DNA of 64,000 nucleotides from Bacteroidota bacterium (lineage in GTDB: Bacteria; Bacteroidota; Bacteroidia; Flavobacteriales_D; Crocinitomicaceae). The position numbers and the translations under genes are program-made. Of the stretch, positions 1,432-51,755 are shown piece after piece (the stretch's first letter is position 1; every line of letters begins with the position of its first letter). The stretch covers positions 19,945-83,944 of the forward strand of contig JBNJEH010000003.1 in the NCBI GenBank assembly GCA_051745635.1. The letters run 5' to 3'. The notes below the pieces were generated by a model. That model had not been told where the DNA came from. It ran no database searches and worked only from the letters and a program-made list of their open reading frames with translations.

Positions 1432-2505
1432 CTAAGTTGTTGTTCCCTGACAGCTGGAACCGGCGCCGGCGGTACAACCATAACAATGTTGACCCGTGAC
1501 GATGGTGCGGTCGTAGAGCATTTTTTCATCAAAATTACTGACGTGCTGGCGATCACTTTTTACTTTTAATTGCAGCATTTGATTGAAATCGCAATCGTAC
1601 AAATACCCTTGCCAGTCGACGGAAATGGTGTTTTTGCACATGACATTTTCAGCCGCTGCAGGATTGAAAGCATTGATCAGCGTTTCCATATAATCCTCGT
1701 ATTTGTTCGCCGCAAGGAGAAAATCGAGGTACCTGGAAATGGGCAAATTGGTAATGGTGTACAAACGATCGAAATCGATGTCCCAATCTTCTTTCAACCT
1801 TATTTTATAATCTTGTTCTAGTGCTTCCTGAGCTGGCGGAAGACTCGCCCCGCCAGGATTATAGACCAGGTGTAAATCGAGATTGCTGTCTGACTTACCG
1901 TAGCCGAGTTGATTCAGATTTTGAAGCGCTTCAATAGAACGGTTAAAAACCCCGGATCCGCGTTGTTTATCGACATTTTCCTCAGAATAACAAGGCATCG
2001 ATGCAATGACTTCTATACCGTGTTCCTTGAAAAATGCGGGAAATGTACGGAAATTTTTGTTGGAGACGAGTATGGTGAGATTGGAACGCACAATCGTGTG
2101 TACACCGCGCTCCGAAAGTGCTTCAACCAGCCATTTAAAATGCGGGTTCATTTCTGGTGCTCCACCGGTTAAATCAACCGTCTTTACCGAAGTTTGATCG
2201 ATGATTTTAAGGACATCTTTCAACGTTTCTTTGGTCATAATTTCTTTGCGGTCCGGACCTGCATCTACGTGACAGTGCTCGCAGGTAAGGTCGCACATAT
2301 AGCCGAGATTGAGCTGTAAAATTTCCAGCGTTCGCGGTCGAAAAGGAAGTTGGTCGTGCTCGTCGAGCTGGTCATTAAATCCTTTGCCCACACGCCGATC
2401 GTGCTCCAGCAGGTTGATTTGATTTTCCGCCTCAGCGAGATAACTTTTTCTCCGTTGTAACGATTTTAATTTTTTCTTTTTCTTATTTCCAGCAACTGTA
2501 GCCAT
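1432..2505 (-). CDS. arsS: Arsenosugar-biosynthesis-type radical SAM protein ArsS (TIGR04167-like, DUF3641 C-terminus)
   Basis: LQLNLGYMCDLTCEHCHVDAGP (CxxxCxxC), DLTGGAPEMNP, YDCDFNQML and C-terminal HCYGCTAGAGSSCQG. Start chosen at ATG 2505 (MATVAG). Confidence 0.85.
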   Translation of the reverse strand: MATVAGNKKKKKLKSLQRRKSYLAEAENQINLLEHDRRVGKGFNDQLDEHDQLPFRPRTLEILQLNLGYMCDLTCEHCHVDAGPDRKEIMTKETLKDVLKIIDQTSVKTVDLTGGAPEMNPHFKWLVEALSERGVHTIVRSNLTILVSNKNFRTFPAFFKEHGIEVIASMPCYSEENVDKQRGSGVFNRSIEALQNLNQLGYGKSDSNLDLHLVYNPGGASLPPAQEALEQDYKIRLKEDWDIDFDRLYTITNLPISRYLDFLLAANKYEDYMETLINAFNPAAAENVMCKNTISVDWQGYLYDCDFNQMLQLKVKSDRQHVSNFDEKMLYDRTIVTGQHCYGCTAGAGSSCQGTTT

Positions 2506-2534
2506 AAAATTGGTTTTCTTTAAATTAAAAAATG

Positions 2535-2758
2535 GGTTTAACTCCACTTCGACTTGGGCGCTCAGTACATCGCGTTGAGCTCCTTTTAGTCGGTTCCAAG
2601 ATAGGTCGTAAATTTTAAATTAAAACATTCTTTCTTATTGGATGCTTTTTTTTATAAAAGATGTTAGACTTGGAGATGTTAGATATTCTTAATATCAGTT
2701 ATCTAACATCTATTGTCTAAGTATCTAACATCTGTATCTTTAATAAGCATTCATTATT
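2535..2758. repeat. Dispersed ~224-bp non-coding element, copy 1 (inverted relative to 51046-51266)
   Basis: Its reverse complement aligns end to end with 51046-51266 (AATAATGAAT...GTTAAACC), about 27 differences by hand alignment. Confidence 0.9.
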
Positions 2759-3088
2759 GTTTTACGACTTACTTTGGTAATCCTAATTAAAAATATGTCG
2801 GTATGGAGCGTCATACCTTACATAGTTACGTAAAAATAATTTTTTTGGATTTCTAAAAGCCCGGATTCATAAAAATCCTTATCTTTTCGGTGGAAAAAGA
2901 CAAATGACAGATTTACATGACAGGCGAATTGATGGAGGTGTTATCCTTTAATTTGCTGCTAAAGAGTGATTTTTATGCATTGTGTAAAACAGATGAATTC
3001 TCAGAATCAGTAAAAACGTCAGTAATAAAGCGAATAGAATGATAGTTGTAACAAATGGTTGCAACGGAAAATAAATAAAACAACATAT

Positions 3089-3901
3089 ATGAAAGTTTTA
3101 GTAATTGGTGGAGGAAACATGGGATTGACTTATTCTGAAGGAATGGCCACTTCCGAACTCTTGAACAGAAGAAAGTTAATGGTTCATGACTTGAGTGCCG
3201 AAACCATCGCACGTTTAAAAGAAAACCCGGAATTCGATGTCCACGAAACGCTCGAGGATTGTTTGCCGCAGGCGGATATCGTTTTTGTGGCAGTGAAACC
3301 TTACCACTGTGAGGCTTTGTTTGAAAAAATGAAGCCGATGGTCAACGATCAACAAGTATTTGTTTCGCTCATGGCCGGTGTGACGATAGATTTCATCAAA
3401 GATACGTTAGAAGCGCCCAAAGTGATCAGAACGATGCCGAACCTGCCCGCTAAGGTAGGAATGGGCGTTACCTCCTTTACAGAATCTGAGGCCGTTTCGC
3501 GCGTGGAACTCTTGATGGTGCGCAATTTACTGGACACTACAGGTGCTTCTATACATGTGGAGACAGAAGCGTTTATCGATAAGTCAACTGGAATATCGGG
3601 TAGTGGGCCCGCTTACGTTTTTTACTTTATGAACTCTATGCTGGAGGCAGCCAAAAAAATGGGCTTCTCCGATAACGATTCGAAAGTATTGGTGAGCGCC
3701 ACTTTTGAAGGGGCAGTGAAATTGTTCAATGAATCTGACCTCACGCCGCAAATCTGGATGGATCGCGTAGCTTCTAAAGGCGGGACGACACAGGCGGCAC
3801 TGGACTCTATGGACGATAATAACATCAAAGACCTGATTAAAGATGCAGCTTATGCAGCTTTTGATCGTGCCGTTGAATTAGGAGAAGAATCAAATCAATA
3901 A
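3089..3901 (+). CDS. proC: Pyrroline-5-carboxylate reductase
   Basis: MKVLVIGGGNMG Rossmann motif, VAVKP, SLMAGV, RTMPNLP, TGISGSGPAYVF, VASKGGTT. Confidence 0.95.
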   Translation: MKVLVIGGGNMGLTYSEGMATSELLNRRKLMVHDLSAETIARLKENPEFDVHETLEDCLPQADIVFVAVKPYHCEALFEKMKPMVNDQQVFVSLMAGVTIDFIKDTLEAPKVIRTMPNLPAKVGMGVTSFTESEAVSRVELLMVRNLLDTTGASIHVETEAFIDKSTGISGSGPAYVFYFMNSMLEAAKKMGFSDNDSKVLVSATFEGAVKLFNESDLTPQIWMDRVASKGGTTQAALDSMDDNNIKDLIKDAAYAAFDRAVELGEESNQ

Positions 3902-3911
3902 AAAAATAGTT

Positions 3912-4694
3912 TTGGAAGATTTTAAGAAAAGAATCGTAGTTAAAGTTGGTACGAATGTGATGACCAACAGAAATAATAGAATTGTTGGTCCCATCTTGAA
4001 AAATCTGGTCCGTCAGATCGCTTATCTCTATGAACGGGATATCATCACGATCCTCGTATCTTCGGGATCTGCCATTGCTGGGAAGGAAGTGCTCGGAGAT
4101 TGCCTTGCTGAAGATGCCAGCACGCGCCGACAAATATTTTCATCTGTTGGTCAGCCGCGATTGATGCGCCATTATTATTCCATGTTTCACGATTTTGGGA
4201 TGCGCTGTGCACAGGTATTAGCGACCAAACGGGATTTTGCCCCTGGTAAATACCGCGAAAACATGATCAACTGTTACGAAGGGCTTCTCGCCGAAGGAAT
4301 CATTCCGATTGCCAATGAAGATGACGCCGTTTCGCTCACTATGTCGATGTTTTCGGATAACGATGAACTTGCGAGCCTCGTAGCTGAACTGGTAGATGCT
4401 GAAATGTTGATCATGTTGACGGACATTGACGGACTTTATACTGGTCATCCCAATGATGATGGTTCAGAACTGTTACACCGCGTGAAAGTCAATCAGAACG
4501 TTGAAAAATACGTTCAGGAATCCGACAAAGGAGAAGGCGAAGGCCGAGGAGGCATGGAATCCAAGCTAAAAATTGCTAAATCGACGGCTGGTAAAGAAAT
4601 TCCGACTTATATCGCCAACGGAAAGGAAGAGGATATCATTATCGATATACTCAAAGGCGAAAAAGTAGGAACGAAGTTTATTTCTGAAGATTAA
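3912..4694 (+). CDS. proB: Glutamate 5-kinase (short form, no PUA domain), TTG start
   Basis: IVVKVGTNV, LVSSGSAIAG, GQPRLM, IPIANEDDAV, FSDNDELASLV, GRGGMESKL. Confidence 0.95.
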   Translation: MEDFKKRIVVKVGTNVMTNRNNRIVGPILKNLVRQIAYLYERDIITILVSSGSAIAGKEVLGDCLAEDASTRRQIFSSVGQPRLMRHYYSMFHDFGMRCAQVLATKRDFAPGKYRENMINCYEGLLAEGIIPIANEDDAVSLTMSMFSDNDELASLVAELVDAEMLIMLTDIDGLYTGHPNDDGSELLHRVKVNQNVEKYVQESDKGEGEGRGGMESKLKIAKSTAGKEIPTYIANGKEEDIIIDILKGEKVGTKFISED

Positions 4695-4725
4695 TTCAAA
4701 CAAAAATCTAAAAATTAAACAAACT

Positions 4726-5925
4726 ATGAAGTTTTTAAGTACAAACAAGAAAAATGCAGTTTTACAATCGATGATGGATATTATCGATGGCAAAAGAGAA
4801 GAGATTATTGCTGAAAACAAGAAAGATCTGGATGCTTTTCAACGCGACGATCAGGCACTTTACGATCGTTTGGTCGTAGATAGTGCTAAAGTCGATGGGA
4901 TGATTCAGGCGATTCGGGAAGTCAAAGAGCAAGATGACCCCGTAGGAAAAGAGATTTCTTCACGAACGTTGGATACAGGATTGAAAATCATCAATAAAAC
5001 CGATCCTTTTGGAACGATCATGATCATTTATGAATCGCGCCCCGACGTTACGATTGAGGCAGCTGTTCTCGCTTTTAAGGCGAACAATAAAATTTTGCTA
5101 AAAGGCGGTCGCGAAGCATACAACAGCAACAAAGTACTGGTAAAATGCTGGCACGAGGCATTGAAAGCAAACGATCTCGGAGACGAATGGATTAAAATGC
5201 TGGAAATGAATCGCGAAGAGACGCAGGAATTTTTGCGCAACCCAAGTGAAAAACTCGATTTGATTGTGCCGAGAGGCGGTGAAAAATTGATCGAATTTGT
5301 GAAGTTGCATGCAAAATGCGCCGTACTCATTAGTGGTCGCGGTAACAACTTCCTTTATGTTTCACCAAAAGCCGACTGGGCTAAAGCTGTGAAGGTCATT
5401 ATCAATGCGAAAACCGATAAAATTTCTGGTTGTAACGCACTCGATAAGGTACTCGTGGATAAAAACCTCGATGGATACGAAGCTAAATTGCAGGATCTCG
5501 AGGGCGAACTTCAGAAGGCGGGCGTTCATATCGTCGCAGATGATGAAGTTTCTCGCGTATTGAAGGATGCTGAAAAGTTGATTGATGAATCGATCTGGCA
5601 AGAGGAGTTCCTCGCCATGAAGATTTTAATCGGTGCTGTGAATGATCAAAAAGAAGCCATGGATGTTATCAATAAGAACTCCGGACACCACTCGAGCGTT
5701 ATTATGACAGAAGATAGTAGCGAAGCGGAGAAATTCATGCAGCAAGTCGATAGTGCAGCTGTCTATCAAAATGCTTCAACGCGCTTTACTGATGGTGGTC
5801 AAATGGGCGTTGGTGCAGAGTTGGCAATCAGTACTGATAAACTTCACCACCGCGGACCGCTCGGTTTGAAACAGCTGACGACGAACAAATATTACGTCTT
5901 TGGTGATGGTCACATTCGTGAATAA
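4726..5925 (+). CDS. proA: Gamma-glutamyl phosphate reductase
   Basis: PFGTIMIIYESRPDVT, LKGGREA, VPRGGEKLI, SGCNALD (catalytic Cys), NASTRFTDGGQMGVGAELAISTDKLHHRGPLGL. Confidence 0.95.
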   Translation: MKFLSTNKKNAVLQSMMDIIDGKREEIIAENKKDLDAFQRDDQALYDRLVVDSAKVDGMIQAIREVKEQDDPVGKEISSRTLDTGLKIINKTDPFGTIMIIYESRPDVTIEAAVLAFKANNKILLKGGREAYNSNKVLVKCWHEALKANDLGDEWIKMLEMNREETQEFLRNPSEKLDLIVPRGGEKLIEFVKLHAKCAVLISGRGNNFLYVSPKADWAKAVKVIINAKTDKISGCNALDKVLVDKNLDGYEAKLQDLEGELQKAGVHIVADDEVSRVLKDAEKLIDESIWQEEFLAMKILIGAVNDQKEAMDVINKNSGHHSSVIMTEDSSEAEKFMQQVDSAAVYQNASTRFTDGGQMGVGAELAISTDKLHHRGPLGLKQLTTNKYYVFGDGHIRE

Positions 5926-5949
5926 ATAGATACAATTTAAAGTATATTC

Positions 5950-5983
5950 AAGGGTCGGGGTTTTTGAAATCCCGGCCTTTTTT
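5950..5983 (+). terminator. Intrinsic terminator of the pro operon
   Basis: AGGGTCGGG / CCCGGCCTT stem followed by a T run, 25 nt after the proA stop. Confidence 0.75.
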
Positions 5984-6039
5984 GTTTATCGCTTTATCGG
6001 TTAGGAATTCATCCCTTACTGATAGAAGCTGATTCTAAC

Positions 6040-6295
6040 CTCGCAGTGGCTTCAGCCACCTAGTGCCGATATTCTTGATTGAAGACCAAGCCGGTGAAGA
6101 GACTCATCTCGGCAAGCTAGATGTATCACATCTCGACAAGCTTATCTTGGCACATCGCCCCTCAATAAACACATTTTAATAAGCTCAATGTGTCACATCG
6201 CATCGTTTTACGAACTTTGCTTGTCCTGAGCTTTGCGATCTTAGCGTAATCTTTATGTTCTTTGCGGTTAATACTGATGCTTTCGATCAGCACAG
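6040..6295. repeat. Degenerate mosaic of REP-like palindromes and short repeats
   Basis: GTGGCTTCAGCCAC palindrome, CTCGACAAGCT / AAGCTCAATGTGTCAC / GTCCTGAGCTT fragments, CTTTGCG repeats, and ATACTGATGCT..TCGATCAGCA shared with 50221-50252. Confidence 0.5.
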
Positions 6296-6575
6296 GTACG
6301 GTTAAGAACCTAAATAAACACTGTCTTTAATTTGCCATCATCTACGAAACTTAAAAATTAGAACTGGTAAACATCGAAACAAGCGTTTAAAAATTAAAAA
6401 CAAAGAAAAACATTCCTGAACCTGCCATCAACTATGAAAAGTATATGTTTCAGCGGTTAAGCATCTAGGTAGGCATTTTACTCTATTTATCCCGGGCTGA
6501 TAAATGCCGTAGAAAATAGAATTTATACGTTTACCTGAATGTCGGTTTTTCGATTGCTGAAATATCAGTGATTAC

Positions 6576-9500
6576 TTATTTGAGCACATTGACGTGCCCT
6601 ACAACGGTCTGACGTTCATCAATGCCTTCAGTCTTATAGATGATTTTCCAGACATAAGTGCCGTCTTTTACGATGCGTTGAGAACTTTTCCCATACGTGC
6701 CATCCCAACCAACTTCGGCATCATTGGATTCAAAAATAACTTCGCCCCAGCGATTGAATATTAATAATTTGAAGTCGAAAGGATCAAATCCACTCGTAAA
6801 TACAGGCTGGAAGACTTCATTAAAATCGTCTTTGTCGGGTGTAAACGTGTTGGGAACATAAAAAATCAACTCTTCACGTATTGTAATAACGGCATAAGCG
6901 GTATCTGCACAGCCATCATTGTTGATGGCGACGAGTTCTACCTCGTATTCATCGGCAGCATTCGGGTAGATATGAACAGGGTTGATGTTAGTTGAACTCT
7001 GGTTATCGCCAAAATCCCATTCAAAATTTTGAGCACCCACTGATGTGTTGGTGAATTCAACCTCGGTATCAATGTTAGTCAGCGTTTCGGGCGAGAACGA
7101 AAATGATGCGTCGGGATAACCGTCTGCGCAGACGTAGTCATCAAATGTAAGGGAGGAAGAACAGCCGTTGGCATCGGTAACTTCAAGCGATACATCATAG
7201 CACCCTGGTGTATCATAGGTGTTTGTAACATCTGTACATCCCGAAGAAGTATTGCCGTCTCCAAAATTCCAGACGCACGAGACATCCGGTCCTGCTGAAG
7301 TATTTGAAAAAGTAGCAGTCACTGGAGCGCATCCTTCCAGGTTTTGTCCTTGAAAATCGACGGTGGGTAGCGGAACCACTTCAATCGTTACCTGATCAGT
7401 GTCGGTGCAACCTTCAATACTTGTACCTGTAACAGTATAGGTTGTTGTGCTTGCGGGAATGAAAGAAACACCATCAGTGACACCATTATCCCAAGTGTAA
7501 GTGTTGGCTCCTGAGCCAGAAAGTACTGCGCTTTCTCCTTCGCAGATTGTGAGGTCATTACCGGCTTCAACGTCGGGCAGCGGATGCGCAGTAACGTCCA
7601 CCTGATCAGTGGCAGTGCAACCAGAGAGTTCAGCTGTAACAGTATACGTTGTCGTTCCTACAGATGGTGTAAAAGGTGTTCCGTCGCCAACACCATTATC
7701 CCACGTTATATTAGCTCCATCGGGATTTGCTGCCGTTAGCGTTACGTTTTCTCCTTCACATACCGTTTGATCGGGACCTGCGTCAACACTTGGTGCATTA
7801 GGTTCTACGAGCGTTAACGAAGTATTATTGGTTCCGTCGCAGCCGTTTAAAGAAACAATGAAGTTGGCAAAAGTACCAGGGCTCAAACCGGTCAGTGTGA
7901 TTTCACCAGCTCCGTCACTCGTCAAGTTGAGCGGACCAACGGGGGTACCATTTTCCGTGTAGGCTATGTTGTAATTCACATTCGCCTGTAATCCACTGAT
8001 CGTTATTGTGCCATCATTCGAACCGCATGAGGATGGATCTGTTCCGGTCAGTGTGAAGTTGGGTACTGGATTAATCGTGACATCAAAAGTAGACTGATCA
8101 AAGCAAGTAGGATCCGGAGTTGTATAAGTAATTGTATATGTGCCCGTAGCCGAAGATAGATCAATAGCCCCGGTATTTGCGTCTACAGTTAACCCTGCAG
8201 GATTAACCGTAAAAGTACCTCCAGGATCACCTGTAATATTTGCGATGGGATCTGTTTCATCCTGACAATAGGTCGTTGCAGGATAATCAAAACTCGCATC
8301 TTCAGTTCCGGTAAACGTGCCAGAGATTGTTTCTGGACAACCCGCGTCATCGACAATATCAAAGGAATAATTGTCACCATCCGTCAGACCAGTAATTGTC
8401 ACTGTACCTCCGTTTGGTACCGTAGTTGTCGATAAATTGGCCGATGCGGGCTGCAAATTAGAAATTGTAAAATTACTGCCGTCAAAAGAAGGTTGGCCTC
8501 CATTTATCGTAATCGTTGCTTCGCCAGCCTGGCAGTCTTCGGTAATCGTTGTTGTAATTTCTTCGAGCAAACTGACCTCAAAAACCTCGCCCATATCGTA
8601 GCAGAAATCACCTCCATTGATAGAAATGGCATAAATGGTATCTGTCATGCTATACATGGTTACAGGAACCAGATAAAGGGTCGAATTATCTCCAATGTTA
8701 TTGGTCAGTGACCAATTCTGGTTCTGAAAGGACGCAATTCCAGCCAAACAGGGATCAGTGTTGATGTCGTCAGGAGGAAACACCGTTGGCGGACAGGAAT
8801 AGGCAAATAGAAAAACGCCGGGGTCATACGTCACTCCGCCTATGTTGAAATCATCCGATGGTTGAAAATCACCATTGCCCGTAATATCCAATTGATCACC
8901 AAAACACAATAAAAAGGGATTGGTTGTCGTCGTGTTTCCGTTGACATTACTGGAGTAGGTTCCCGCATCTGCCGTGCACTCGCATGGGTCTGGATAATCA
9001 AATGTGTTGGAAGTGATCGTGCAAGTGGCATCATCTGTAAAATAAGCCGTCACATCGCATCCTGTAAATCCATCTGAATCAATCCCTGTCAAGTTATAGT
9101 TCTGAGGACTCGAAAAAGGAGCGTTGAATGTCTGTTGGTTTCCGTTACAATCTTCTATAATGAGTTGACCTGTAGCAGGAGGGCTGTCGAATTCAACACT
9201 ACCACTGATCTCAAATTCATTGTTGTTGGGGTCACAGGCAGAAATATTAACGTCGATAAAAGTGAAATTACATGGACAATCAGGGGCTGTATACGAAAGA
9301 CTTTGAGTACATCCAGGATCGTCTGAAAAATAAACGGTGATATTACAGTTCGCTCCGTCGGCATTCAGTCCGGTCAAATTATAATTCGTTGGGCTCGTAA
9401 ACGGTGCATTGAATGTTTGCTGATTTCCATTACAATCCTCTACAATCAATTGTCCTGTGCCAGGAGGAGAATTAAATTCGACCACACCATCGATACTATA

Positions 9501-29845: not shown

Positions 29846-29951
29846 TCCCAGCTCCGCTGCAGGCTTGTCCCGATTTTGAATCGTGCCTGTCTCGATTTAT
29901 ACATAGAGAGTGCACTGCTGCGCTATTAAACATTAACTTAAGTCAATAGCC
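29846..29951 (+). repeat. 106-bp direct repeat (family R, copy 2)
   Basis: 98/106 identical to 31570-31675 by hand comparison; the first 18 nt match the left arm at 27990. Confidence 0.9.
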
Positions 29952-30124
29952 TTATTTCTAACTCAAAATATTTCATTAACTTCATGTAAACCAACAATAA
30001 CCACCATAATGAACAAATGAGAAAAACACACCATTAAAAAGAACGCGACTAATTAGAGCCACGACCACGAGAAGTACCACGAAGTAGCACCGAAGGTAAT
30101 CTCGCGGCAGGGTGGGAACTATAA

Positions 30125-31569: not shown

Positions 31570-31675
31570 CCCCGGCTCCGCTGCAGGCTTCTCCCGATTT
31601 TACATCGTGCCTGTCTCGATTTATACATAGAGAGTGCACCGCTGCGCTATTAAACATTAACTTTATTCAATAGCC
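31570..31675 (+). repeat. 106-bp direct repeat (family R, copy 3)
   Basis: Near-identical to 29846-29951. Confidence 0.9.
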
Positions 31676-31728
31676 ATACTTCCCATCACGTTCGCGGGGA
31701 GATGAATAAGTAATTCTTAACCCTGACT

Positions 31729-35589: not shown

Positions 35590-35865
35590 GGAGTATTGAG
35601 CATACAGGGGGTGATACAGGATTGAGCATACAGGATTGAGCATACAGGGGGGTACAGTATTGAGCAAGAGTATTGAGCATACAGAGGGTGATACAGGATT
35701 GAGCATACAGGATTGAGCATACAGGGTGTTTGCACGATCAAAATTCTTGCTCTCTAATCTATCCTCTTGCTCTTTACTCTTGCTGTATGCTCACTACCCT
35801 TGCTGTATGCTCACTACTCTTGCTCTTGCTCCTCACTCTTGCTGTATCCTCTTGCTCTCAACTGT
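35590..35865. repeat. Tandem/inverted short-repeat array (TTGAGCATACAG x6 plus inverted CTGTATGCTCA x2 and CTCTTGCT repeats)
   Basis: Units at 35596, 35622, 35636, 35673, 35699, 35713; a ~58-bp higher-order duplication (35591-35648 vs 35668-35726); complementary arm at 35783 and 35803. Confidence 0.9.
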
Positions 35866-49531: not shown

Positions 49532-50210
49532 ATTTGACACTATAAAAATAAACGGCAATCCAACGGCTGCGCGGTTTGAAAGAGCGCACACCACTTTTTC
49601 TATTCTTGAGCTGACGGGAAAATCTTTAGGTTCTACCACGAATTTAGTGGGTAAGGACAGCGTAAAAGCATTCAAAATATCCCTTGAGTGGCTTTTTGTC
49701 ACGGTTTTTGTCCTTCGACATTTTTCAAATAATTAAATTTGAAAGCTCAGGAACCACAAAAACACGCGCCAAAAAGTATTTCTTCATAATCTTGTGGCGA
49801 TAGATAGGTGCCTTTCATAATTGCCCTTCCCTAAAATATAATTATCCGTTTTATACTACCAATTAAATACGTGATAGAACCAATCTTTATTGGCTTATGC
49901 CACAATTTGATGGTTGGTAAATCGGAATAGTCTCAAAAGTTGGGGAGAGCGTAAAGAGTTAAAACTTTTTTGAAAAGAATTACCGATTTAGATCATCGAA
50001 TTAAGCAGTATACTTTTCAGTTCGTACAAGATTGTTTTATTTCGCACCTCCTGATGAGTAGAGCCATCGGGAATAGCAACGGAAAATGAGAGTCTAAGAA
50101 CAAATGATTTAGGTAGGCAATATAGTTATCTTAAGCATAAAATTTAATAGACCGGGAGGTTGCGCATAGGAAAATCAGTTCGGGGTACCCACTACCTGAA
50201 AACTTCGCGA

Positions 50211-50321
50211 TCTCGATACGATACTGATGCTTCGTTTCACTTCGATCAGCATCACTCGATCGCCTTGCATAATGGTAAGGTGATCGAGTGCTGCGTAATG
50301 TAATGAAGCAGAGTATCGAGA
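50211..50321. repeat. REP-like nested hairpin
   Basis: TCTCGATAC...GTATCGAGA outer arms and CACTCGATCGCC...GGTGATCGAGTG inner arms. Confidence 0.7.
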
Positions 50322-50364
50322 GCACCGAAATAGAGCAGATTTTCCAAGCGCTAGACTTTTTTGT

Positions 50365-50395
50365 TTTACTTTTTTTGGCAATGAAAAAAAGTAAA
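50365..50395. repeat. AT-rich hairpin
   Basis: TTTACTTTTTTT-GGCAATG-AAAAAAAGTAAA, a perfect 12-bp stem. Confidence 0.55.
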
Positions 50396-50508
50396 GAAGG
50401 TCAAAAAGAAAAATTACTTCGATGATTGACCGAAATTTATGCACAGTCCCCAACTTTTGGTCTTGATCCGGTAAATATGCAAATCCTCAGGTCATCAGGG
50501 TTGGTGGA

Positions 50509-50780: not shown

Positions 50781-51045
50781 GATTCAAATGTACTGTTGTA
50801 TTCCGCCAATAAAAAAGGTAAAATGATGAAACGACGCTATAAATTCACGAATGAACGCTACGGATTCACGAATGACATTTATAGGGCTTGGATTTTCGGC
50901 AGAGAACTACCAGGAAGGAGGAAAATAGTCCCATCTTCGAGTGCTTCTTCTCTTCTTTTGATCAAATTGAACGTGGCACACTTACTTTACATGACCGATT
51001 CCCTGGAACATGCACAATAAATGCTCAGGTATTGGCGGATAAAAA

Positions 51046-51266
51046 AATAATGAATACTTATTAAAGCATACAGATGTTAGACAATTAGACAATAGATGTT
51101 AGATAACTGATATAAAGAATATCTAACCTCTCCGGGTCTAACATCTTTTATAAATCTAAGCATCCAATTTGCGAGAATGTTTTAAATTAAAATTACGACC
51201 TATCCTGGAACCGACTAAAAGGAACTCAAAGCGATGTGCTTGGCCCAAGTCGAAGTTAGTTAAACC
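51046..51266. repeat. Dispersed ~221-bp non-coding element, copy 2 (inverted relative to 2535-2758)
   Basis: End-to-end alignment with the reverse complement of 2535-2758. Confidence 0.9.
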
Positions 51267-51311
51267 GTAAAGATGATTCAGGTGTAGAATCTTTAGGGTA
51301 GGTTAGCAAAT

Positions 51312-51334
51312 AAAAAAAAGGGCCGCAGCCCTTG
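51312..51334 (-). terminator. Intrinsic terminator
   Basis: AAGGGC-TGCG-GCCCTT plus T8 on the minus strand after the 51360 stop. Confidence 0.75.
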
Positions 51335-51359
51335 TAATAGTTTAATTTTAGTTGTACGC

Positions 51360-51755
51360 CTAGAAGGGCATATTTGAGCCGGCTATACCGCCAACTACGC
51401 CACCTATAATTCCAAGAACAAACCCGATGATGGTAAGAATGACCGTTACCTTCCAGAATTTCAGGTAGTTTTCAGTAAACTCTTCCATATTGAATTGATT
51501 TCTACTCGCCGCCTGAGCCTGTTTAAAGAGAAGCAAACTGACGTAGATGTAAATACCGGCCATGATGATATAGACAATTCCAATAACAGGGAGCATAAAT
51601 AACATGCCAATAGCTGCAATCACCATAAAGCCTGAACCGATAAAGCCCAAAATAGCGATCGTTTTTGCCCAACCTGAAGCCTCGTGAAGATTCGTTTTTG
51701 ATTGGTTTGATAATCCGCGATCTTGTTGTTCTGCGTTATCGTCTAAATTTTCCAT
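51360..51755 (-). CDS. DUF5362-like small membrane protein
   Basis: LHEASGWAKTIAILGFIG pattern and three TM helices. Confidence 0.7.
   Translation of the reverse strand: MENLDDNAEQQDRGLSNQSKTNLHEASGWAKTIAILGFIGSGFMVIAAIGMLFMLPVIGIVYIIMAGIYIYVSLLLFKQAQAASRNQFNMEEFTENYLKFWKVTVILTIIGFVLGIIGGVVGGIAGSNMPF

What the first reader, a model, noticed from the sequence alone, without database searches (positions are those of the whole stretch)
2535..2758. A ~224-bp bipartite non-coding element present twice, 48 kb apart and inverted
Seen: the reverse complement of 2535-2758 aligns end to end with 51046-51266 at about 85-88% identity. It has two parts: a 75-bp hairpin made of four AGATGTTAGA decamers, two forward and two reverse (2659-2733), and a GC-richer ~64-nt motif (2546-2609), joined by an AT-rich linker. 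No transposase or obvious terminal inverted repeat is associated, and indels between copies argue against coding. Inference: a small non-autonomous mobile regulatory cassette, or a multi-copy ncRNA gene that I cannot assign to a known family.
Basis: partly seen in the sequence, partly recalled or inferred. Interest (0 to 1): 0.72.

Follow-up and report, generated by a model that had tools for sequence, protein, structure and literature searches.

The report
High-copy IS1595-type miniature transposon (MITE)
The twice-seen 224-bp "bipartite element" is two copies of a roughly 100-copy miniature, non-coding transposon whose ends match those of IS1595-family insertion sequences of related Flavobacteriales; this is an ordinary kind of selfish DNA, not a new RNA gene.

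Summary
2535-2758 and the reverse complement of 51046-51266 are about 87-89% identical, their flanks are unrelated, and each holds four AGATGTTAGA decamers.

The element is larger than reported. Copy A spans 2532-2785 (254 bp). It has terminal inverted repeats and an exact 8-bp target-site duplication, ATTAAAAA.

In lake-water metagenomes that hold this genome, depth over the element is roughly 50-110 times that of its flanks. It is absent from the same radical-SAM/proC intergenic region in Brumimicrobium-like relatives.

A pattern built only from the element's ends retrieved the termini of ~1.0-kb insertion sequences that encode IS1595-family transposases (Pfam and NCBIfam). One, in a Brumimicrobium genome, also has an exact 8-bp duplication.

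The "GC-rich motif" is mostly a 56-nt hairpin module sitting inside the left inverted repeat. Some family members lack it.

Verdict: a miniature inverted-repeat transposable element (MITE) mobilised in trans by an IS1595-family transposase. It is a new family of a known kind. No known-family match or compensatory change supports an ncRNA, and nothing found points to a regulatory role; transcription could not be tested.

The parts
2524..2531 (.). Left copy of the 8-bp target-site duplication ATTAAAAA of copy A
   Evidence: 2524-2531 and 2786-2793 are both ATTAAAAA. Exact 8-mers flanking a 254-bp segment occur at 3 of 63,730 positions in the window.
2532..2785 (+). MITE copy A, complete, long form (254 bp)
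   Evidence: Depth step (flanks 28-77x, element 1,500-8,400x). Loose-end positions 2530-2533 and 2785. Termini match IS1595-family IS termini. Stops in all six frames.
2532..2538 (+). Outer part of the left TIR (ATGGGTT), separated from the inner part by the module
   Evidence: IS termini are ATGGGTTACCAAG... or TTGGGTTACCAAG.... Short-form copies read ATGGRTTA|CCAAGATAGG (loose ends at 2596/2597, and at 51208).
2540..2595 (+).
   Evidence: Predicted stem-loop 2549-2593. 51% G+C. Depth is about 60-70% of the core in X1-X4 and about 15-30% in X7/X8. Contigs go from unique flank plus ATGGRTTA straight to 2596/2597.
2596..2612 (+). Inner part of the left TIR, CCAAGATAGGTCGTAAA
   Evidence: the repeat finder I2. 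The first 14 nt (CCAAGATAGGTCGT) are identical to L109 IS positions 412-425, and 16/17 match L085, L087 and L099.
2659..2733 (+). Central AT-rich hairpin built from four AGATGTTAGA decamers (two forward, two reverse)
   Evidence: Family variants differ by 7-nt slippage units (AGATGTT inserted after 2673; an 11-nt skip 2720-2732).
2760..2785 (+). Right TIR, TTTTACGACTTACTTTGGTAATCCTA
   Evidence: Family consensus from loose ends (TAGAATTACCAATGTAAGTCG on the other strand). Matches IS right ends ...ACGACTTAAATTGGTAACCCAT.
2786..2793 (.). Right copy of the 8-bp target-site duplication ATTAAAAA
51040..51268 (-). MITE copy B, long form, right end truncated (last ~25 nt including the right TIR missing)
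   Evidence: In one search the depth step lies at 51041-51257, and loose ends 'before 51040' read TAGAATTACCAATGTAAGTCG in other copies but not in B.

Best explanation
The two sequences are copies of a miniature inverted-repeat transposable element (MITE). It is a non-coding, non-autonomous DNA transposon of about 198 bp (short form) or 254 bp (long form). It has amplified to dozens to roughly 100 copies in the genome of an uncultured lake-water Flavobacteriales bacterium close to Brumimicrobium. Its ~25-bp terminal inverted repeats are those of a lineage of ~1.0-kb IS1595-family insertion sequences common in Flavobacteriia. A transposase of that lineage, supplied in trans, is inferred to bind the repeats, excise or copy the element, and insert it into AT-rich intergenic DNA with an 8-bp target duplication. 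Shown: copy number, ends, TSD at copy A, absence at the orthologous site in relatives, identity of the termini with IS1595-family IS termini, and lack of coding capacity. Inferred: trans-mobilisation, the exact chemistry, and present-day activity. The 56-nt GC-rich hairpin is an optional module lodged inside the left repeat. The central four-decamer hairpin is cargo with no demonstrated function.
For: Copy number: Logan contigs of eight metagenome runs give depth 28-77 on the unique flanks against 1,500-8,400 over 2541-2788, with the same pattern over copy B. Two copies in 64 kb extrapolates to about 100 per 3-Mb genome. Ends: TIR 2596-2612/2761-2777, and 19 of 26 positions match between the short-form left end and the right end (sequences). 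TSD: ATTAAAAA on both sides of 2532-2785. Insertion: L004, L005 and L011 (UBA2104 and Brumimicrobium) keep radical-SAM and proC divergent, with about 300-320 bp between them and no element. Removing the element plus one TSD from the window leaves 321 bp and restores the CCTTACATA..CGTAAA motif to 57 nt from the start codon, against roughly 45-65 nt in two of the relatives, L004 and L005. Partner family: the pattern RRTTACCAANNTARGTCGTAAA, derived only from the element's ends, hit 17 metagenome loci, 10 of which are termini of a repeated IS. That IS encodes a 300-aa protein with Zn_ribbon_IS1595 and DDE_Tnp_IS1595 domains and matches NF033547 at 7.7e-40. 485 homologues are found, including ones named IS1595 family transposase in Brumimicrobium, Crocinitomix and Cryomorphaceae. 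The Brumimicrobium copy L101 is 1,023 bp, reads ATGGGTTACCAAGCTAGGTCGT...GGTAACCCAT, and has an exact 8-bp TSD TAAAGGAA. Precedent: an IS1595-associated MITE with IR 25 and DR 8 (PMC3852290, Table 4), and 8-bp TSDs in the IS1595 family (PMC10045372).
Against: Only one complete copy could be read base by base. TSD and TIR statistics for the family rest on 30-nt loose-end consensus sequences, not on individual copies. No IS1595-family transposase gene was found in the window. No IS at least 80% similar to L085 was seen in runs X1 and X2, where the host is abundant, so a partner in the same genome is not shown. Several Logan or short contigs with the IS show no TSD (L099, L106, L110, L112), possibly because repeat-collapsed contigs join flanks of different copies. 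The 21-mer of the GC module is absent from GTDB genomes, including the 96%-ProA relative's MAG; this may reflect assembly loss of repeats or real restriction of the family.
Confidence: 0.9

Rival explanations
1. A multi-copy structured non-coding RNA gene: the hairpins are RNA structure under selection.
For: Both strands fold better than shuffles (z = -5.0 and -4.1). The GC-rich stem-loop is the least variable part among copies (no variant at 10% or more between 2567 and 2618).
Against: No Rfam family reaches gathering score anywhere in the window, and the permissive scan gives only chance-level hits. The A/B difference inside the second decamer (T to G) breaks a pair without compensation. Hairpin arms vary by 7-nt slippage. 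The element has transposon ends and a TSD. The GC stem-loop is optional. No RNA run holds it, although that is weak evidence.
Confidence: 0.03
2. A MITE that has additionally been co-opted. The four decamers would be a dispersed operator array for a DNA-binding protein, or the hairpins would act as transcription terminators or mRNA stabilisers for neighbouring genes.
For: The decamers are exact and ordered. The GC module resembles an intrinsic terminator (7-bp stem followed by TCCTTTTAGT). Copy A sits 26 nt upstream of the radical-SAM start codon and copy B just downstream of a gene's terminator, so both are placed to affect transcription.
Against: No candidate binding protein and no expression data are available. 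Only two genomic contexts could be read. Decamer number varies by slippage among copies. The element is absent from relatives, which keep their own conserved intergenic motifs.
Confidence: 0.1
3. An old segmental duplication of intergenic DNA, or the inverted ends of a 48-kb composite or invertible segment.
For: The two window copies are inverted and 48.3 kb apart.
Against: Depth is about 50-110 times the flanks, and 140-205 contigs per run lie on the element, many running on into sequence unlike the window. No contig joins the two copies on opposite strands. Copy B is truncated. Each copy has its own unrelated flanks.
Confidence: 0.01

Closest known systems
IS1595-family insertion sequences of Flavobacteriia (e.g. 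the 1,023-bp copy in Brumimicrobium sp. GCA_023957385.1, locus L101; the metagenomic copies L085, L099, L109)
   Same: Termini: IS ATGGGTTACCAAGCTAGGTCGT or TTGGGTTACCAAGATAGGTCGT against element ATGGGTTA|CCAAGATAGGTCGT and TAGGATTACCAAAGTAAGTCGT. 8-bp target duplication. AT-rich insertion sites.
   Different: The element has no transposase gene and shares nothing with the IS beyond about 25 nt at each end. It carries an unrelated hairpin core and, in the long form, a 56-nt module splitting the left repeat.
IS1595-associated MITE of Haloquadratum walsbyi (ISHwa6-related; PMC3852290, Table 4)
   Same: Same IS family, IR about 25 bp, DR 8 bp, size in the 150-250 bp range.
   Different: That one is archaeal, 165 bp and present in 7 copies. 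The element here is in a Flavobacteriales bacterium, has dozens to about 100 copies, and has no sequence relationship that could be tested.
High-copy bacterial MITEs such as Correia elements (Neisseria) and RUP or BOX elements (Streptococcus pneumoniae); comparison from general knowledge, not tested here
   Same: Non-coding, about 100-250 bp, tens to hundreds of copies, intergenic, strongly folding, sometimes modular (BOX).
   Different: Different IS families and TSDs (Correia: TA). No sequence similarity is expected. Regulatory effects are documented for those elements and not for this one.

Membership tests
MITE (miniature inverted-repeat transposable element) | Small size (well under about 600 bp) and no coding capacity | tested here: met
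   254 bp. Stops in all six frames; the longest open stretch is about 30-40 codons and differs between copies through indels.
MITE (miniature inverted-repeat transposable element) | Terminal inverted repeats | tested here: met
   2596-2612 / 2761-2777 are 82% complementary. With the outer 8 nt, 19 of 26 positions match in the short form. Copy B lacks the right repeat because it is truncated.
MITE (miniature inverted-repeat transposable element) | Target-site duplication of fixed length | tested here: met
   Exact 8-bp ATTAAAAA at copy A. Only one complete copy could be read, so the rule is not yet established for the whole family.
MITE (miniature inverted-repeat transposable element) | Many dispersed copies and insertion polymorphism | tested here: met
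   Depth ratio of about 50-110, with 140-205 contigs per run. Absent from the orthologous intergenic region in L004, L005 and L011. No empty allele was seen within the species.
IS1595-family derivative | TIRs match those of an IS encoding an IS1595-family transposase | tested here: met
   A pattern from the element's ends retrieved IS termini. The transposase has PF12760 and PF12762 domains and matches NF033547. Terminus table.
IS1595-family derivative | 8-bp target duplication, as in the family | tested here: met
   Element 8 bp. IS L101 8 bp TAAAGGAA and L109 8 bp ACTTTAAT. Family rule from PMC10045372 and PMC3852290.
IS1595-family derivative | An autonomous partner in the same genome | tested here: inconclusive
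   None in the window. No IS at least 80% similar to L085 in runs X1 and X2. A loose-end variant that shares the left end but has a different interior (after 2611: TTTACATTCATGTTGTATGTCCC) could be such an IS but could not be extended.
Any Rfam RNA family | Covariance-model match at gathering score | tested here: not met
   0 matches in 64 kb. Best permissive hit is mir-190 at 20 bits against a cut-off of 48, E = 0.41.

The most novel reading that the evidence does not exclude
The long form carries a 56-nt GC-rich hairpin inside the left terminal repeat, between the cleavage-proximal ATGGGTT and the inner CCAAGATAGGTCGT, yet it appears to be the majority form in several samples. If long-form copies really transpose, the IS1595-type transposase tolerates, or even uses, an extruded hairpin within its binding site. 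Alternatively the module is a second-order mini-insertion or a terminator-like payload being spread by the MITE. Equally open: the four-decamer core could be a dispersed protein-binding array.
Probability: 0.1. Interest if true: 0.5.

Novelty: new member of a known kind. Interest (0 to 1): 0.25.

Why it matters
For annotation, it explains a repeat that breaks assemblies of this lake bacterium (Logan contigs end inside it) and that creates false N-terminal extensions of neighbouring ORFs. For biology, it adds a high-copy MITE family, tied to a concrete transposase lineage, to a phylum where few are described. The same window holds at least two further MITE-like families with 8-bp duplications, so this genome is unusually repeat-laden and could serve to study MITE bursts. 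None of this changes current understanding of transposons.

Tried and rejected
- Rfam at gathering and permissive thresholds, and tRNA/tmRNA search: nothing.
- 21-mer of the GC-rich module against GTDB genomes, JGI metagenomes and IMG/VR: 0 hits each.
- Three more viral-contig scans with TIR, hairpin and inner-TIR patterns: 0.
- BLASTN against phages and plasmids: no match.
- Six-frame peptides of both copies as a protein query, to catch ORFs miscalled on other copies and so fetch their contigs: no hit at E <= 10.
- Logan contig beyond the left window edge (L100): its far end is coding DNA, not another copy.
- Scan of 40-60 kb in the 96%-identical strain (X5) for strain-specific insertions: too many unrelated loose ends to read.
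- RNA-seq runs: none listed.
- Considered and dropped: IS200/IS605-type PATE or omega-RNA remnant (the TIRs and TSD argue against it); REP/BIME; iterons of a replication origin; ends of a 48-kb composite transposon.

Full report
**1. Observation**

The two stretches exist as described.
- Aligning 2435-2858 with the reverse complement of 50946-51366 gives a block of near-identity from 2535 to about 2760, with unrelated sequence on both sides.
- The repeat finder reports arms of 127 nt at 89% and 61 nt at 85% complementarity.
- The decamer AGATGTTAGA occurs exactly at 2659 and 2674 (+) and at 2702 and 2724 (-). Copy B has three exact copies and one with a single mismatch. There is no other exact copy in the window.
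- A 28-mer from the GC-rich part is found only in the two copies, with 0 expected by chance.

**2. It is not a two-copy feature**

Logan contigs from lake-water and other aquatic metagenomes hold this genome.
- Laid on 2200-3100, they give a depth of 28-77 on the unique flanks and 1,500-8,400 over 2541-2788, with 140-205 contigs per run lying on the element.
- The same step is seen over copy B, at 51041-51257.
- It is also seen in four further runs, including one whose strain differs by about 4% in the flanks yet has the element at the same site.
- The depth ratio is roughly 50-110. This agrees with two copies per 64 kb extrapolated to a genome of a few megabases.
- Depth sums over variant contigs and possibly over several strains, so the per-genome number is approximate.

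**3. True ends**

- The depth step and the contigs' loose ends place the right end at 2785, not 2758. Other copies share 2760-2785 (TTTTACGACTTACTTTGGTAATCCTA) with copy A.
- At copy B, other copies continue beyond 51040 with TAGAATTACCAATGTAAGTCG, which B lacks. Copy B is therefore truncated by about 25 nt.
- 2761-2777 is an inverted repeat of 2596-2612, 82% complementary.
- Several contigs run from unique flank through ATGGRTTA directly into CCAAGATAGGTCG at 2596/2597 (mirrored at 51208). These define a short form lacking 56 nt.
- In the short form the left end ATGGGTTACCAAGATAGGTCGTAAAT and the reverse complement of the right end TAGGATTACCAAAGTAAGTCGTAAAA match at 19 of 26 positions.
- Copy A (2532-2785) is flanked by ATTAAAAA on both sides (2524-2531 and 2786-2793). 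Such exact 8-mer pairs around a 254-bp segment occur at 3 of 63,730 positions in the window.

**4. It is an insertion**

A ProA-based scan of GTDB genomes places the window next to an uncultured Flavobacteriales MAG (96% aa), UBA2104 (83%) and Brumimicrobium species (75-81%).
- None of the 80 relatives' loci contains the element.
- L004, L005 and L011 keep the divergent radical-SAM/proC arrangement with about 300-320 bp between the genes, against 584 bp in the window.
- Deleting 2532-2793 (element plus one duplication) leaves 321 bp. It also brings the conserved CCTTACATA..CGTAAA motif to 57 nt from the radical-SAM start codon, within the roughly 45-65 nt seen in two of the relatives, L004 and L005.

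**5. Which transposon family**

- A pattern made only from the element's ends (RRTTACCAANNTARGTCGTAAA) hit 17 JGI metagenome contigs. In 10 of them (eight from one sample, plus L085 and L099) the match is the terminus of a repeated element, followed about 60 nt later by an ORF starting MKTV(K/R)GLSR...
- In L085 and L099 this ORF is 300 aa. The L085 protein, scanned against Pfam and NCBIfam, carries Zn_ribbon_IS1595 (PF12760) and DDE_Tnp_IS1595 (PF12762) and matches NCBIfam NF033547 "IS1595 family transposase" at 7.7e-40.
- The IS is about 1.0 kb, with its stop codon inside the right repeat.
- The protein has 485 homologues at E <= 1e-30, including ones named IS1595 family transposase in Brumimicrobium, Crocinitomix, Cryomorphaceae and Amoebophilus.
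- The Brumimicrobium genome copy (L101, on a 702-kb contig) is 1,023 bp, reads ATGGGTTACCAAGCTAGGTCGT ... ACGACTTAAATTGGTAACCCAT, and is flanked by an exact 8-bp TAAAGGAA.
- L109 has the inner repeat CCAAGATAGGTCGT, identical to the element's, and an 8-bp ACTTTAAT duplication.
- Apart from these roughly 25 nt at each end, the element shares nothing with the IS.
- An IS1595-associated MITE with 25-bp repeats and 8-bp duplications has been described in an archaeon (PMC3852290, Table 4). 8-bp duplications are reported for the IS1016 group within the IS1595 family (PMC10045372).

**6. Anatomy re-read**

- (a) the outer left repeat ATGGGTT, 2532-2538;
- (b) a 56-nt, 51% G+C stem-loop module, about 2540-2595, lodged inside the left repeat;
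- (c) the inner left repeat plus an AT-rich linker, 2596-2658;
- (d) the central hairpin of four decamers, 2659-2733;
- (e) the right subterminal region and right repeat, 2734-2785.

The module's depth is about 60-70% of the core in runs X1-X4 and about 15-30% in X7 and X8. It is therefore optional and never exceeds the core, which gives no sign that it exists on its own.

The hairpin arms vary among copies by 7-nt units (AGATGTT inserted; an 11-nt skip), which looks like slippage rather than constraint. The one A/B substitution inside a decamer is uncompensated.

**7. Mechanism**

- Shown: the structure, copy number, insertion and family affiliation of the ends.
- Inferred: an IS1595-family DDE transposase with an N-terminal zinc ribbon, encoded elsewhere, recognises the repeats and moves the element into AT-rich intergenic DNA with an 8-bp staggered cut.
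- Not known: whether the family is still active, and whether a partner IS sits in this genome.
  - There is no such gene in the window.
  - No IS at least 80% similar to L085 was found in runs X1 and X2.
  - A minority variant shares the left end but continues differently after 2611. It might be that partner, but it could not be extended.
- Possible side effects on neighbouring genes are untested. Copy A lies 26 nt upstream of the radical-SAM start codon. The module looks terminator-like.

**8. Rivals**

- An ncRNA gene is unsupported: there is no Rfam match, no compensatory change, the ends are transposon ends, and the GC stem-loop is optional.
- An old duplication, or a pair of ends of a 48-kb unit, is excluded by copy number and by the absence of joining contigs.
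- Co-option as a regulatory or protein-binding module remains possible in addition to mobility, but no evidence for it was found.

**9. Verdict**

This is a real feature, correctly spotted but incompletely delimited. It is a new family of a well-known kind of element, an IS1595-type MITE, in an uncultured lake Flavobacteriales bacterium. Interest is low to moderate. The only unusual points are the high copy number for this phylum and the hairpin module that splits the left repeat.

Noticed in passing
window 49629-49881: A second, unrelated MITE-like element. It is 253 bp with 25-bp terminal inverted repeats (GGTTCTACCACGAATTTAGTGGGTA / TACCAATTAAATACGTGATAGAACC, 84% complementary) and an exact 8-bp duplication AATCTTTA at 49621-49628 and 49882-49889. 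Part of it (49676-49767) reaches about 35-50 times the flank depth in X1/X2.
   Followed up: partly
window 49924-50469: A third repeat of about 546 bp, with roughly 23-bp imperfect inverted ends containing CAAAAGTTGGGGA / TCCCCAACTTTTG and a 7/8 flanking match (GGTAAATC / GGTAAATA). Loose ends lie at 49929 and 50469. The inner part 50136-50457 has depth about 10-30 times the flanks and contains a 41-nt inverted repeat at 50226-50317. Together with copy B, this makes 49.6-51.3 kb a nest of repeats.
   Followed up: partly
window 2816-2835 and 2905-2923: Two motifs in the radical-SAM/proC intergenic region are conserved in relatives despite otherwise diverged sequence: CCTTACATA..CGTAAA (absent or degraded in L011), and a direct repeat TGACA-N7-CATGACA (GTGACAnnTTnnCATGACA in the three Brumimicrobium-like relatives). 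They may be operator or promoter elements of the proCBA cluster or of the radical-SAM gene.
   Followed up: no
window 1432-2547 (- strand): The mechanical ORF of the radical-SAM gene starts at GTG 2547, inside the MITE (MELNPFFNLKKTNF...). The likely true start is the ATG at 2505 (MATVAGNKKKK...). This is an example of the element producing a false N-terminal extension.
   Followed up: partly
window 29847-29958 and 31571-31682: A 112-nt direct repeat at 92% identity, 1.7 kb apart. It was not examined.
   Followed up: no
window 35591-35726: Two 59-nt units (98% identical, 77 nt apart) built from short GAGCATACAGG-type sub-repeats. It was not examined.
   Followed up: no
L085 1202-2359 (- strand): In the metagenome contig that carries the IS1595-type IS, the next gene is a Mutator/IS256-family transposase (PF00872, 1.6e-82). 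That host is also IS-rich.
   Followed up: no
L085/L099/L101/L109/L110 left ends: The IS left ends carry a conserved subterminal CGTAAAT.. motif repeated in direct and inverted orientation (e.g. GGTCGTAAATCTGCCAAATCGTAAATCGTTTACG in L110). These may be extra transposase-binding sites, and the MITE lacks them.
   Followed up: no
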